DNA of 64,000 nt from Fimbriimonadaceae bacterium. GTDB lineage: Bacteria; Armatimonadota; Fimbriimonadia; Fimbriimonadales; Fimbriimonadaceae. This document shows, piece after piece, positions 8,030 through 10,559 of this stretch. Position numbers and translations under genes: made by a program. Position 1 is the first letter of the stretch. Each line of letters opens with the position of its first letter. The notes under the pieces were generated by a model. It worked only from the letters and a program-made list of their open reading frames with translations, was not told the origin of the DNA and did not search any database. The stretch is from the NCBI GenBank assembly GCA_963666135.2, contig CAXXNR010000001.1, positions 1,513,853 to 1,577,852 on the forward strand. The letters are read 5' to 3'.

Positions 8030-9601
8030 TTATCCTATGACGAACTCGCGCATCGCCTGCGGGACCGACGCGTCGAATCCGACAACGTCGAGCATTCCGG
8101 CATCGCGCGGGTCGGCGATCGTGAAGTTGTTGCCTGCCATGGCCACAACGATCAGTCTCGCGTTGATCCCCGACTTCTGCCGGTACTCGGCCAGCGCTTG
8201 CGACGGATGCACCTTGCCGTACCACGTCTCGCTGTCCGTGTAGACCACGAAGACATCGACCTGAAGCTTATGCCTCGTCGCATAAAGCATCGGCAGCGCG
8301 CAGTCGGTAGCCTCGAAAGGCAAGCTCTGCGTTAACCTCAGAGCGTCGGACAGCCGCATCTTTGGCGTCAGGTTCAGCTTGATAAAGCCGCTCGTAAACG
8401 CCATCGGAATGCAGTTTGGCTCTGAAACCATGTTGACCATGGCCATTGCCGTCGCCGCCTCGCTCGCTGTCAAGAGCGTTCCGCCTACGCGCGCCCCCGC
8501 CATCGAACCCGACACGTCGACTCCCAAGAGGAACCGCTTGCCTGTCGGCTCGATGTTCGCAAACGCTGCATAGAACGCCCCATCGAGCGCATCCGAAATG
8601 GCCGGAACCGGAATCCACTGGCCTTTGCCTTTGAACCCGGAACCCGAGCCGTATGTGGACGAAGCGAGCAAGAACGCCATCGGGTGCGCCCGAGAACGCT
8701 TGATCCGCTCCGCCGACTTCAGCTCGTTCAGCACCTTTTGGGTTGCCTCGGACTGTGGAGTCAGCAAGCCGCATTTCGTCATGTTGGCCAGGTTGCGGAC
8801 CATTGCCATCATCGGCATGTCTTCCAGCAACGCTTCCCAAACCGACGGATTCGTCAGGAACTGCGTTGGCACGCATTCGCGAGGCAATCGGTGCTCCCGG
8901 ATCCACTTGACTGCTTCGTCGGGATCCGAGGCCTTGGAAAGCCCCATGAACGCCTCGAGTTTCGCGTTTTCGCTGACGAGTTCGCCGTCGACGATCCACT
9001 TGAAGAGCGTTTTGTGCTCTTCGCTTGCCGGCTTCGGGTGCGCGAGTCGGAGCAAGTCGCGGTGCGACCAGCCTTCTCGCTGCTGGTACTTGATCGCCTG
9101 GTAGGTCAGGCCGTTGACCTCAGCGTCGTTGTACCAGTTCCCGATGGCGCGCCGGAGACCCCGTCCCCATCCGCGCATTTCGCCGCATTCCGAGGCAAAC
9201 TGAAACAGGTGCGTTCCTGTTCGGCACACCTTTCTCAGCGATGCGAGTGCAGCCTGCTTCGTTTTGGCGTCTCCGTGCGATGCGCAGAGGGACAAAGCGA
9301 AGATCGCCGGACCGTTTTTGGGCGCTCTGCCGGAATCGCTGATTTCAACGATTCGGTTGACCACCCTCTGGCCGTCCAGTTTGATCAGGCTCAAGACGTT
9401 CGACGCGTGGTCGAGCGTCAGCTTTCGCTCGCTGATGTAATAGGTGCCGCCTTCGGTTCCCAGGATGAGGAACCGATCAAGCAACGCCCAAGGATTGATC
9501 GCCCAGGCGTAGCCGCCCGCGGAGTTCGGGGTTTGGCCCGCTCCGAAGATCGGATCGCTCTGCGGCGTCTTTCGAATGCTTAAGTATTTGCTGAACTTCA
9601 T
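8030..9601 (-). CDS. rsr: Ro60-related protein Rsr (TROVE domain + vWA domain)
   Basis: MKFSKYLSIRKTPQSDPI...FLILGTEGGTYY...GRAPKNGPAIFAL...THLFQF...RGWGRGLRRAI is TROVE-like. The C-terminal vWA domain has a MIDAS motif (LLGVDVSGSM). ATG 9601 is preceded by GAGGTG. The upstream 123 codons of the track ORF lie over the structured RNA genes. Confidence 0.88.
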   Translation of the reverse strand: MKFSKYLSIRKTPQSDPIFGAGQTPNSAGGYAWAINPWALLDRFLILGTEGGTYYISERKLTLDHASNVLSLIKLDGQRVVNRIVEISDSGRAPKNGPAIFALSLCASHGDAKTKQAALASLRKVCRTGTHLFQFASECGEMRGWGRGLRRAIGNWYNDAEVNGLTYQAIKYQQREGWSHRDLLRLAHPKPASEEHKTLFKWIVDGELVSENAKLEAFMGLSKASDPDEAVKWIREHRLPRECVPTQFLTNPSVWEALLEDMPMMAMVRNLANMTKCGLLTPQSEATQKVLNELKSAERIKRSRAHPMAFLLASSTYGSGSGFKGKGQWIPVPAISDALDGAFYAAFANIEPTGKRFLLGVDVSGSMAGARVGGTLLTASEAATAMAMVNMVSEPNCIPMAFTSGFIKLNLTPKMRLSDALRLTQSLPFEATDCALPMLYATRHKLQVDVFVVYTDSETWYGKVHPSQALAEYRQKSGINARLIVVAMAGNNFTIADPRDAGMLDVVGFDASVPQAMREFVIG

Positions 9602-9740
9602 GTTCTTCACCTCATATGCGGCGGGTCGGGGAGGCATGTGTTCAGGTGTAGGTGTGTCTGCCTTGTCGGACAGGTCAAACCGGTCTGACAATGAAAATCC
9701 TTTCACAGCGAAACAAGCCCCAAAGGGACGAATGCAGCAT

Positions 9741-9806
9741 CCGGGCAAGGGACATCTATGGGGGCTGCCGTGCTTGAAACGATAACCCACAGACTTCGGC
9801 CCGGAA
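9741..9806 (-). ncRNA. Y-RNA-like gene 5 (minimal, about 66 nt, no tRNA-like module)
   Basis: The minus strand reads CCGGGCCGAAGUCUGUGGGUUAUCG...CCCCCAUAGAUGUCCCUUGCCCGG. The 5' CCGGGC-C-GA pairs with 3' UUGCCCGG, leaving a bulged C as in the Ro-binding helix. An upper stem forms between CUGUGGG and CCCAUAG. Ends are +/-5 nt. Confidence 0.7.
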
Positions 9807-9821
9807 GCCGACAAGGAAAGA

Positions 9822-9949
9822 GCCTGGGCAAGGTGTGTCCTTGGGCGTTTAGGCGCTTTACCGATTAAGCTACGTCCTTGCGGACGGCTGGATTCGAAAC
9901 CAGCAACTCCCCGGTTTAGAGACGGTAACCCACGAACATCGGCCCAGGC
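9822..9949 (-). ncRNA. Y-RNA-like gene 4 with tRNA-like module (YrlA-type)
   Basis: 5' GCCUGGGCCGAUGUUCGUGGGUUACCG pairs with 3' CACACCUUGCCCAGGC. Internal elements are a T-arm-like GCUGG-UUUCGAAU-CCAGC, a hairpin GUCCGCAAGGAC and a D-arm-like GUAGCUUAAUCGGUAAAGCGC. Confidence 0.75.
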
Positions 9950-9960
9950 TAGGATGGCGC

Positions 9961-10076
9961 GTGCGGGCAAGGAGCGGCATTAGGATTTCTCCGCCTTTCG
10001 GTCGGAGGGAGTTCCGTCAGGTTTCCCCGCCGGTTGGTGCTACTCTAAGCGATAACCCAAAACCATCGGCCCGCAC
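9961..10076 (-). ncRNA. Y-RNA-like gene 3 (no obvious T-arm)
   Basis: 5' GUGCGGGCCGAUGGUUUUGGGUUAUCG pairs with 3' CUCCUUGCCCGCAC. There is an internal hairpin CUCCG-ACCGAAAGG-CGGAG. Confidence 0.65.
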
Positions 10077-10085
10077 AAGAATGTC

Positions 10086-10211
10086 GAGTCTGGGCAAGTT
10101 GCGCCGCTGGCAAGCGCTCTAACCTCTGAGCTACGTCCTTTCGGACGGCCGGAATCGAACCGGCGACCACTCGCTTAACAGGCGATAATCCAACAGCATC
10201 GGCCCAGACGA
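10086..10211 (-). ncRNA. Y-RNA-like gene 2 with tRNA-like module (YrlA-type)
   Basis: 5' UCUGGGCCGAUGCUGUUGGAUUAUCG pairs with 3' AACUUGCCCAGA. It has a perfect T-arm (GCCGG-UUCGAUU-CCGGC), a hairpin GUCCGAAAGGAC and a D-arm (GUAGCUCAGAGGUUAGAGCGC). Confidence 0.78.
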
Positions 10212-10217
10212 ATCTGA

Positions 10218-10340
10218 GAAGCGCGGGCAAGGGGCGGACTGGGAAAACTTCTAGCCTTTCAGCTTGAAGCGCGAGATTTGAACCCGCTAGCCAATGTTTG
10301 TTGACCTTAACCGATAACCCAGACCTTCGGCCCGCACGAA
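10218..10340 (-). ncRNA. Y-RNA-like gene 1 with T-arm-like module
   Basis: 5' GCGGGCCGAAGGUCUGGGUUAUCGG pairs with 3' CCCCUUGCCCGCGC. It has a T-arm-like GCGGG-UUCAAAU-CUCGC. Confidence 0.7.
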
Positions 10341-10559
10341 CCATGTCAAGCCGGGTTCCATCCCATTCCCGGCGGAATTACAAGATGCTCTCGTTAGGCG
10401 CAAGACAGAGAGTTGTACAAATGCGCTTTGCGAGTGCAAGGAGTAATCTGACGAGCAAAGAAATCAAAAGGTTTCGGTTTTTATGTAAAAAACGAATTTC
10501 GTGGCACTTTCGATGAGCCTAACAGGTTTTCCAGCGGCTTTAGGCGGTAGCTTGTTAGT

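What the first reader, a model, noticed from the sequence alone, without database searches (positions are those of the whole stretch)
9822..10340. Three Y-like RNAs carry a permuted tRNA-like module; two are minimal, so the array is heterogeneous
Units 1, 2 and 4 contain near-canonical T-arms: GCCGG-UUCGAUU-CCGGC, GCGGG-UUCAAAU-CUCGC and GCUGG-UUUCGAAU-CCAGC. In units 2 and 4 the T-arm is followed by a short GUCCG(A/C)AAGGAC hairpin and then a D-arm (GUAGCUCAGAGGUUAGAGCGC or GUAGCUUAAUCGGUAAAGCGC). The T-arm therefore precedes the D-arm and no anticodon arm is present. That arrangement is the one described for YrlA-type Y RNAs that mimic tRNA. Units 3 and 5 lack the module. The array mixes YrlA-like and YrlB-like architectures, which suggests duplication and divergence with possibly different effector partners. 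tRNA scanners may mis-call pseudo-tRNAs here.
Basis: partly seen in the sequence, partly recalled or inferred. Interest (0 to 1): 0.6.

Follow-up and report, generated by a model that had tools for sequence, protein, structure and literature searches.

The report
Five Y RNA genes beside Ro60
Just upstream of this bacterium's Ro60 (rsr) gene lie five back-to-back small RNA genes that share one Ro60-docking stem but carry different heads, two of them rearranged tRNA look-alikes of the known YrlA type; this is a real but expected example of a known RNA-protein partnership in a lineage where standard databases miss it.

Summary
The finding lies on the minus strand. Every quoted sequence string is present. 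Five tandem units (10337-9739) sit 8-12 nt apart, ending 138 nt upstream of an rsr/Ro60 gene (8030-9601) on the same strand. All five share a metazoan-like Y RNA handle (GGGC-C-CGA ... UUG-GCCC, then UGGGUUAYC). Units 2 and 4 carry the complete YrlA head: T arm, a closed 5-bp acceptor-like hairpin with a GNRA loop, U8-A9, and a D arm. They also show G15:C48 versus A15:U48 covariation of the tRNA Levitt pair. Unit 1 has only a T arm plus unrelated hairpins. Unit 3 is not minimal: it is 116 nt with three non-tRNA hairpins. Unit 5 is the only minimal, YrlB-like unit and lies outside the given coordinates.

Rfam YrlA matches units 2 and 4 at about 37 bits, below its 69-bit threshold. ARAGORN calls no tRNA. 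My own covariance model finds exactly these five units in the 4.6-Mb genome. It also finds 1-7 clustered units in 37 of 151 Fimbriimonadaceae genomes; among the 36 also screened for rsr, hits occurred only in rsr-positive genomes.

Verdict: genuine Y RNAs and new members of a known kind. Heterogeneous arrays are the norm in this family. Expression could not be checked.

The parts
10221..10337 (-). Y RNA unit 1 (class B). It has the Ro60 handle, a 6-bp hairpin (10306-10289), the T arm GCGGG-UUCAAAU-CUCGC (10287-10271) and a GAAA-capped hairpin (10269-10248). It has no D arm.
   Evidence: R1 70.1 bits, E 5e-11. Fold z = -2.35. Coordinates. Class B relatives with a covarying T stem are listed.
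10088..10209 (-). Y RNA unit 2 (class A, YrlA-type). Parts in order: handle; hairpin UCGC-CUGUUAA-GCGA (10185-10171); linker GUGGUC; T arm (10164-10148); closed acceptor-like stem CGUCC-GAAA-GGACG (10147-10134); U8-A9; D arm GCUC-AGAGGUUA-GAGC (10131-10116). It has G15:C48.
   Evidence: Rfam YrlA 36.5 bits, E 4.2e-6, model positions 1-114. R1 92.2 bits. Fold. Its D arm matches 20 of 21 nt of the genome's tRNA-Met.
9961..10076 (-). Y RNA unit 3. It has the handle and a non-tRNA head of three hairpins (10050-10039, 10033-10014, 10007-9989), two with GAAA loops. It is not minimal.
   Evidence: R1 58.6 bits, E 1.4e-8. Fold z = -2.26. No T-loop motif. No clear sequence orthologue of the head (best local alignment score 22).
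9822..9949 (-). Y RNA unit 4 (class A, divergent YrlA-type). Parts: hairpin CCGU-CUCUAAA-CCGG (9925-9911); T arm with an 8-nt loop (9904-9887); acceptor-like stem CGUCC-GCAA-GGACG (9886-9873); D arm GCUU-AAUCGGUA-AAGC (9870-9855). It has A15:U48.
   Evidence: Rfam YrlA 36.9 bits, E 3.2e-6. R1 78.3 bits. Levitt-pair and D-stem compensatory changes.
9739..9806 (-). Y RNA unit 5 (minimal, YrlB/Yrn2-like). It is a long bulged hairpin made of the handle and a roughly 20-nt tip.
   Evidence: R1 45.6 bits, E 7e-6. Rfam sbRNA RF01656 30.2 bits and Y_RNA 19.3 bits, both below threshold. Fold z = -2.95.
9707..9729 (-). Terminator-like hairpin followed by a T-rich tail, between the array and rsr.
   Evidence: Consensus scan only. 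The count is no higher than in shuffled sequence, so this is weak evidence.
8030..9601 (-). rsr (Ro60 orthologue), 523 aa counted from the ATG at 9601.
   Evidence: Pfam TROVE 1.4e-46 and vWA_Ro60 7.3e-63. Identity of 62-63% to Fimbriimonadaceae Rsr.

Best explanation
The region encodes five distinct Y RNAs, the non-coding partners of the Ro60/Rsr ring protein encoded immediately downstream on the same strand.

Each RNA closes into a stem formed by its 5' and 3' ends. This stem carries the conserved Ro60-docking site: GGG, a bulged C, CGA paired to UUG, then CCC, followed by a unit-specific upper stem ending in UGGGUUAYC. The other end of each RNA is a different 'head'.

- Units 2 and 4 have the YrlA head, a tRNA-shaped domain wired as a circular permutation. 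The T arm comes first, the acceptor stem is closed by a GNRA loop, then comes the D arm. The Y RNA stem leaves from the anticodon side.
- Unit 1 keeps only a T arm.
- Unit 3 has an unrelated three-hairpin head.
- Unit 5 has almost no head.

Inferred from the characterised Deinococcus and Salmonella systems, not shown here:
- Rsr binds the common stem.
- The heads tether Rsr to different partners. tRNA-binding proteins would recognise the T/D elbow of units 2 and 4, and an exoribonuclease such as PNPase is another candidate.
- The headless unit mainly gates the Rsr cavity.
- With spacers of 8-12 nt, the five are probably made as one precursor and cut apart.
For: Shown by tools:
- The downstream gene is Ro60 (TROVE + vWA_Ro60).
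- All five units fold into end-to-end stems with z = -2.3 to -3.0.
- The handle matches Rfam Y_RNA/sbRNA, and units 2 and 4 match YrlA over the full model.
- ARAGORN finds no tRNA and no family reaches gathering score.
- Model R1 hits exactly these five places in the 4.6-Mb genome.
- In 151 family genomes, 37 have 1-7 hits, clustered and on one strand.
- Among the first 36 family genomes, R1 hits occur only in rsr-positive ones.
- Lower-stem covariation: 95.9% of cells paired against 80.5% in shuffles, and 84 double changes against 23.6.
- Upper stem: 6.9 of 8 pairs within a unit against 5.9 across units.
- In 36 class-A units, the acceptor-like hairpin is 94% paired against 54% in shuffles, with 36 different sequences. 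Position 15:48 is G:C in 32 and A:U in 4.
- The T stem has 4 pair types at one position.

From the literature:
- YrlA architecture and the criterion of same strand within 4 kb of rsr (PMC4201824).
- YrlA as a circularly permuted tRNA with a closed acceptor stem (10.1101/312249).
- Polycistronic Y RNA precursors in D. radiodurans (PMC4201824).
Against:
- Rfam YrlA scores (about 37 bits) are well below the gathering score of 69.
- No convincing promoter was found upstream of unit 1.
- A terminator-like hairpin separates the array from rsr, but it is weak.
- My unit collection required lower-stem pairing, and the T and D stems were required by my own finder. Those paired percentages are therefore partly circular. 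The acceptor-like stem, the Levitt pair and the upper stem were not selected for.
- Unit 4 has an 8-nt T loop and could be a decaying copy.
- Rsr binding and the effector partners are inferred only.
Confidence: 0.87

Rival explanations
1. The units are not independent RNAs. They are structured parts of a long rsr leader that acts in cis, for example through autoregulation by Rsr binding its own 5' UTR or through attenuation.
For: - The units are on the same strand as rsr, directly upstream of it, with only 8-12 nt between them.
- A terminator-like hairpin lies between unit 5 and rsr.
- No separate promoter for rsr was detected.
Against: - In characterised species the equivalent RNAs accumulate as discrete Rsr-bound molecules processed from precursors (PMC4201824).
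- In relatives the units are separated by 100-200-nt spacers and occur in variable order and number. That fits separate gene products better than one leader.
- This reading is not exclusive of the main one.
Confidence: 0.07
2. Some units (1, 3 and 4) are decaying duplicates of a single functional YrlA and have no function of their own. On this reading the heterogeneity is erosion, not specialisation.
For: - Unit 4 has a T loop with one extra nucleotide and is the only class-A unit with a changed D stem.
- Unit 1 lacks a D arm.
- The head of unit 3 has no clear orthologue.
Against: - All five keep an intact handle with unit-specific compensatory upper stems.
- The changes in unit 4 are compensatory: GCUU/AAGC and A15:U48. 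The A15:U48 subclass recurs in three other genomes.
- The T-arm-only class of unit 1, with UAUCGGUUA upstream of the T arm and covarying T stems, recurs in about 20 units across genera.
Confidence: 0.05
3. The tRNA-like pieces are true tRNA genes, tRNA pseudogenes or remnants of a tRNA gene cluster.
For: - T and D arms are near-canonical. The D arm of unit 2 matches 20 of 21 nt of the genome's tRNA-Met.
- Adjacent real tRNAs elsewhere in this genome give weak YrlA hits.
Against: - ARAGORN calls none in the window, and there is no Rfam tRNA hit at E<=10 in the region.
- The T arm precedes the D arm, and the acceptor position is a closed 5-bp hairpin with no free 5'/3' ends.
- The module is embedded in a conserved Ro60-type stem found only beside rsr.
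- The genome already has 47 tRNAs elsewhere.
Confidence: 0.01

Closest known systems
YrlA (Rfam RF02553; Salmonella Typhimurium, Mycobacterium smegmatis, mycobacteriophages; PMC4201824; structure described in 10.1101/312249)
   Same: - Same strand as rsr and within 4 kb of it.
- Head made of T arm, closed acceptor-like stem, U8-A9 and D arm.
- An optional hairpin ('V') lies before the T arm.
- Conserved YUAY (here UUAUC) before that hairpin.
- The Levitt pair covaries G15:C48 / A15:U48.
- Acceptor-like stem length varies between species.
   Different: - The score is only about 37 bits against a gathering score of 69.
- Both strands of the metazoan-type Ro60 helix are retained. In Salmonella and M. 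smegmatis only the 5' strand is recognisable (PMC4201824).
- The 5' motif is GCCGAUG in units 2-4, one mismatch from GNCGAAN0-1G.
- The acceptor-like stem is only 5 bp with a GNRA loop, against 6 bp in Salmonella and 7 bp in M. smegmatis.
- There are two YrlA-type copies in one array.
- rtcB is not linked to rsr.
YrlB (Salmonella, M. smegmatis) and Yrn2 (Deinococcus radiodurans)
   Same: Unit 5 is a long hairpin formed by the 5' and 3' ends, with the Ro60 site and only a small tip. It accompanies a tRNA-like Y RNA, matching the general pattern stated in PMC4201824.
   Different: - There is no sequence homology. YrlB is not conserved beyond Salmonella (PMC4201824).
- The tip is a small stem-loop rather than a pyrimidine-rich loop.
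Deinococcus radiodurans rsr locus (RNAs a, b, Yrn1, d, Yrn2; PMC4201824)
   Same: - Several different small RNAs lie upstream of rsr on the same strand.
- Some have only a T arm (RNAs a and b; Yrn1 lacks a full D arm), like unit 1.
- Transcription is polycistronic.
- Both strands of the metazoan-like handle are retained.
   Different: - In Deinococcus only Yrn1 and Yrn2 have the canonical handle, whereas here all five do.
- The orientation of the T/D elements in Yrn1 differs from YrlA, whereas here it is the YrlA orientation.
- No tRNA gene is interleaved here.
Metazoan Y RNAs (RF00019) and nematode sbRNAs (RF01656)
   Same: - Lower stem with a bulged C and the CGA/UUG pairs.
- The GGGUUAUC motif at the top of the upper stem.
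- Sub-threshold matches over the full model length.
- A relative's minimal unit even exceeds the sbRNA gathering score (46.9 against 38).
   Different: - These are bacterial genes encoded beside rsr, with tRNA-like heads that are absent from metazoan Y RNAs.
- The window's own scores are below the gathering thresholds.

Membership tests
YrlA (tRNA-like bacterial Y RNA) | Encoded within 4 kb of an Ro60/TROVE gene, on the same strand | tested here: met
   The units span 10337-9739 (-) and rsr spans 9601-8030 (-). Pfam TROVE and vWA_Ro60 hits.
YrlA (tRNA-like bacterial Y RNA) | T stem-loop, then acceptor-like stem-loop, then D stem-loop, with tRNA-invariant nucleotides (U8, A14, G18G19, A21, U54U55C56, A58) | tested here: met
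   Met by units 2 and 4. Unit 4 has one extra U in the T loop. Not met by units 1, 3 and 5.
YrlA (tRNA-like bacterial Y RNA) | Levitt pair 15:48 maintained by compensatory change | tested here: met
   G15:C48 in unit 2 and A15:U48 in unit 4. Among class-A units of 27 loci, 32 are G:C and 4 are A:U. The single A:C is a false D-arm call.
YrlA (tRNA-like bacterial Y RNA) | 5' motif GNCGAAN0-1G | tested here: inconclusive
   Units 1 and 5 have GCCGAAG, an exact match. Units 2, 3 and 4 have GCCGAUG, one mismatch. Position 14 of the alignment varies (A 30, G 11, U 7 of 50).
YrlA (tRNA-like bacterial Y RNA) | Rfam RF02553 gathering score (69 bits) | tested here: not met
   36.9 and 36.5 bits. All relatives score 30-46 bits. 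This is a curated cut-off tuned to other phyla, not a biological feature.
YrlA (tRNA-like bacterial Y RNA) | Bound by Rsr; modified by TruB and DusA | not testable with these tools
   Needs immunoprecipitation and modification mapping.
Y RNA in the broad sense (Ro60-binding stem) | The 5' and 3' ends pair into a stem with a bulged C and conserved CGA/UUG, supported by covariation | tested here: met
   All five units meet this. Caveat: lower-stem pairing was a selection criterion for the relatives.
YrlB/Yrn2-type minimal Y RNA | Long hairpin with the Ro60 site and a small loop, accompanying a tRNA-like Y RNA | tested here: met
   Met by unit 5 only (68 nt). Unit 3 does not fit (116 nt, three-hairpin head). 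At least one minimal unit appears in most of the 30 related arrays.
tRNA gene | Cloverleaf in the order acceptor, D, anticodon, T, acceptor, with free ends | tested here: not met
   ARAGORN finds 0 in the window. No RF00005 hit. The order is T, closed stem, D.

The most novel reading that the evidence does not exclude
Fimbriimonadaceae Rsr may work with a fixed toolkit of at least four conserved Y RNA head classes:
- the full YrlA head;
- a T arm without a D arm;
- a head with the motif CUUCGGCGGAAAGGCCGGCC;
- a headless form.
Each class would be an adaptor for a different effector.

In addition, the YrlA heads of this lineage retain an anticodon-arm-like hairpin. It has a 4-bp covarying stem and a 7-nt loop C-U-N-N-N-A-A/C, followed by a class-I-type variable loop AGGUC. 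That would make them nearly complete tRNAs opened between the D and anticodon arms. They would be a molecular fossil supporting the proposed dimeric-tRNA origin of YrlA, and a possible handle for proteins that read anticodon loops.
Probability: 0.2. Interest if true: 0.6.

Novelty: new member of a known kind. Interest (0 to 1): 0.35.

Why it matters
The region adds Armatimonadota (Fimbriimonadaceae) to the lineages with Ro60-Y RNA systems. I found no paper in the searchable library that links Y RNA with this phylum.

It also shows that Rfam's YrlA model, at its threshold, misses an entire family-wide set of more than 100 Y RNA genes. Gene callers can cover them with spurious ORFs, such as the 646-aa and 99-aa frames over this array.

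Biologically, it reinforces the published rule of 'one tRNA-like Y RNA plus one simple Y RNA per species'. It extends that rule to arrays of 4-8 RNAs with recurrent head classes. That gives a natural comparative data set for asking what the heads bind.

It does not change the understanding of what Y RNAs are.

Tried and rejected
- **Rfam at gathering thresholds.** Nothing found in the window. The E-value mode was needed.
- **First regex for units.** It had an indexing error and found nothing useful. It was fixed.
- **First T-arm finder.** A greedy-regex bug left class A empty. It was fixed.
- **Supplementary tables of Chen 2014.** I wanted to see whether Armatimonadota were already listed and how many YrlA copies per genome were reported. 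The tables are not held. The reviews PMC10870794 and PMC6542706 are not held either.
- **Promoter scan.** No sigma-70-like site near the array. By eye, a TTGACA-N17-GGAATAAT promoter is clear in some relatives but not in the window.
- **A second YrlA locus in the genome.** The two weak hits are tRNA-Asp/tRNA-Phe and tRNA-Gly/tRNA-Gly dimers, the false-positive type that Chen 2014 describes.
- **A specific parental tRNA for the heads.** There is no clear closest tRNA.
- **Orthologues of the unit 3 head.** None is convincing.
- **Linkage to rtcB.** Rejected, because RtcB is on the other contig.

Full report
**Where and what.** The finding is on the minus strand. Between 10337 and 9739 lie five units separated by only 8-12 nt. 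After a 138-nt gap that contains a weak terminator-like hairpin (9729-9707), an ORF starts at ATG 9601. Its product has TROVE (1.4e-46) and Ro60-vWA (7.3e-63) domains, so it is rsr/Ro60. The other neighbours are a convergent prolyl oligopeptidase and a divergent 134-aa ORF with no Pfam hit. RtcB is on the other contig. The genome (4.6 Mb, 2 contigs) groups with Fimbriimonadaceae in Armatimonadota. The nearest Rsr is 62-63% identical.

**Check of the observation.** The arm order T, short hairpin, D is correct for units 2 and 4.

Four corrections are needed:
- Unit 1 has only a T arm, flanked by two unrelated hairpins.
- Unit 3 is 116 nt with three hairpins, so it is not minimal.
- Unit 5, the only minimal unit, lies outside the stated coordinates.
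- Unit 2 has a 4-bp hairpin with a 7-nt loop just before the T arm.

ARAGORN calls nothing in the 64 kb. Nothing reaches an Rfam gathering score. With E-value thresholds, Rfam YrlA matches unit 4 (36.9 bits, E 3e-6) and unit 2 (36.5 bits, E 4e-6) over the whole model. All five units give sub-threshold, full-length matches to the nematode sbRNA model or the Y_RNA model.

**The shared handle.** All five units fold with their 5' and 3' ends paired (z = -2.3 to -3.0). The shared features are:
- a lower stem N4-5GGG/CCCN4-5;
- a bulged C;
- CGA paired with UUG;
- an internal loop;
- a unit-specific upper stem ending in UGGGUUAYC.

This is the vertebrate-type Ro60 site with both strands retained. 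PMC4201824 reports that arrangement for Deinococcus but not for Salmonella or M. smegmatis.

I collected 50 units from rsr loci of relatives and aligned them (A2). The lower stem is 95.9% paired against 80.5% in column shuffles. It has 84 cells with double changes against 23.6, and pairing collapses to 36-50% when the partner columns are slid. One caveat applies: I had required 5-6 contiguous pairs when collecting units, so the percentage is partly circular, although the diversity of pair types is not. The upper stem was not a selection criterion. It pairs better within a unit (6.9 of 8) than across units (5.9 ± 0.07; maximum 6.1 in 200 shuffles).

**Specificity and distribution.** A covariance model built from A2 (R1) finds exactly the five units in the whole genome and nothing else at E <= 0.1. 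The five were in the training set; the informative result is that there are no other hits.

In 151 genomes of the family, 37 have hits, with 1-7 per genome. Nearly all hits are clustered in one place on one strand. Among the first 36 family genomes, all nine with R1 hits are rsr-positive, and no rsr-negative genome has a hit. With laxer filters, 30 loci gave 130 units. Array sizes run from 1 to 8, and most loci have 3-5 units, so the window's five is typical.

**The tRNA-like heads.** In 36 distinct class-A units from 27 loci:
- The T loop is UUCRANU and the T stem covaries, with four pair types at position 3.
- The D arm is almost invariant (GCUC-A-R-...-GG-...-A-GAGC) and is preceded by UA.
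- The element between the T and D arms has a different sequence in every unit (36 of 36 distinct). It is nevertheless a hairpin: the outer five pairs are 94% paired against 54 ± 3% when the halves are swapped between units.
- The nucleotide before the T stem and the second D-loop nucleotide are G:C-type in 32 units and A:U-type in 4, with no exception among the true D arms. This is the Levitt 15:48 tertiary pair of tRNA, which Chen et al. also saw covary in YrlA.

Neither the acceptor-like hairpin nor the 15:48 pair was used to select units.

Unit 2 is a typical member (G15:C48). Unit 4 belongs to the rarer A15:U48 subclass. It is the only unit with a compensatory U-A pair in the D stem and the only one with an 8-nt T loop. 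The acceptor-like stems of units 2 and 4 are the shortest type (5 bp plus GNRA) and differ from each other by one loop nucleotide. No such within-genome similarity is evident by eye in the other multi-copy arrays listed. This points to a recent duplication or gene conversion.

According to 10.1101/312249, most YrlA RNAs are circularly permuted tRNAs with closed acceptor stems that are poor RNase P substrates. These two fit that description.

**An added detail.** In roughly 20 of 36 class-A units, including unit 2, the hairpin before the T arm has these features:
- a 4-bp covarying stem (UCGC/GCGG, UCGU/ACGG, UCAC/GUGG, CCGG/CCGG);
- a 7-nt loop C-U-N-N-N-A-A/C;
- 5-6 nt ending in GGUC after the stem.

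In sequence terms this looks like an anticodon arm plus a class-I variable loop. Chen et al. assign the hairpin to the long variable arm ('V'). It fits the dimeric-tRNA origin discussed in 10.1101/312249. The only other weak YrlA hits in this genome are real tRNA dimers, which is consistent with that origin. Which helix stacks on the D arm cannot be decided from sequence.

**The other heads.**
- The layout of unit 1 is UAUCGGUUA, a hairpin, a T arm with UUCAAAU, then a hairpin and no D arm. This layout recurs in about 20 units of different genera with covarying T stems. It is a conserved class and not debris. RNAs with a T arm only are also known at the Deinococcus rsr locus (PMC4201824).
- A further class, with the motif CUUCGGCGGAAAGGCCGGCC, recurs in at least 9 units. 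The head of unit 3 resembles it only loosely and has no clear orthologue.
- Most arrays contain at least one YrlA-type unit and at least one minimal unit. This is the generalisation already made in PMC4201824.

**Mechanism.**
- Shown here: the gene order, the structures, the covariation, and the exclusive association with rsr.
- Inferred from Deinococcus, Salmonella and phage work (PMC4201824; 10.1101/312249; PMC12135203): Rsr docks on the common stem, and the heads recruit partners. PNPase is known in three systems. For YrlA, the partner is an unidentified protein that recognises the tRNA elbow, and TruB and DusA are known to modify YrlA.
- Also inferred: with 8-12-nt spacers, the five units are probably co-transcribed and processed.

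**Novelty.** These are known kinds of RNA in a phylum for which I found no report. They score below database thresholds, and their handle is unusually like the metazoan one. Earlier notes of this scan list many similar or larger Y RNA arrays, mostly in phages. I did not test those notes, but they lowered my estimate of how unusual a five-unit array is. I rate the finding as a new member of a known kind, of modest interest.

**Limits.** No promoter was identified in the window. The supplementary tables of Chen 2014 and two reviews are not held.

Noticed in passing
L008:1-2120 and L006:1-880: In an Anaerolineae MAG about 24 tRNA genes are packed in 2 kb, and in a Caldilineaceae MAG about 7 tRNA genes. 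In both, they lie directly upstream of the Y RNA units and rsr. This is a chromosomal tRNA array linked to Ro60, reminiscent of phage tRNA/Ro60 clusters.
   Followed up: no
L006:1662-1736: A minimal bacterial Y RNA scores 46.9 bits, above the gathering score (38) of Rfam RF01656 'Nematode sRNA ceN72-3_ceN74-2'. The bacterial handle is therefore close enough to sbRNA/Y RNA to be mis-annotated as a nematode RNA.
   Followed up: no
L018:3444-3580: The Rfam tRNA model scores 39.9 bits (gathering score 29) across two adjacent Y RNA units. It apparently joins arms of two adjacent Y RNA units.
   Followed up: no
window 10134-10147 and 9873-9886 (-): The acceptor-like hairpins of units 2 and 4 differ by one nucleotide (GAAA against GCAA loop). 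Yet this element differs in all 36 class-A units, and no such similarity is evident between copies in other genomes. This suggests recent duplication or gene conversion.
   Followed up: partly
window 10171-10185 (-); class-A units of relatives: The hairpin before the T arm has a 4-bp covarying stem and a 7-nt loop C-U-N-N-N-A-A/C, followed by AGGGUC. This resembles an anticodon arm plus a class-I variable loop rather than a long variable arm.
   Followed up: partly
L025, L036, L042, L045, L013 (about 40-60 nt upstream of the first unit): A clear sigma-70-like promoter, TTGACA-N17-(G)GAATAAT, is followed by a conserved TTCCTGCC box. A second group of loci (L017, L018, L031, L034, L035, L037-L040, L044) instead has paired ACGTCGA...TCGACGT inverted repeats upstream of the array, possibly an operator. 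The window shows neither clearly.
   Followed up: no
window 8030-9970 (-) and 10045-10344 (-): Open frames of 646 aa (rsr extended upstream through units 5 and 4) and 99 aa (over units 1-3) cover the RNA genes. They are likely sources of mis-annotation.
   Followed up: no
L017, L018, L025, L031, L034-L039, L044 (class C units): A roughly 20-nt head motif, CUUCGGCGGAAAGGCCGGCC, is conserved in Y RNA units of several genera. Its partner is unknown, and it does not resemble tRNA.
   Followed up: no
I did not examine it.
   Followed up: no
G000 contig C2:1140466-1140641 and C2:486534-486650: The tRNA-Asp/tRNA-Phe and tRNA-Gly/tRNA-Gly gene pairs give weak YrlA-model hits, from the T arm of the first tRNA plus the D arm of the second. 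This illustrates both the known false-positive type and the proposed dimeric-tRNA origin.
   Followed up: yes
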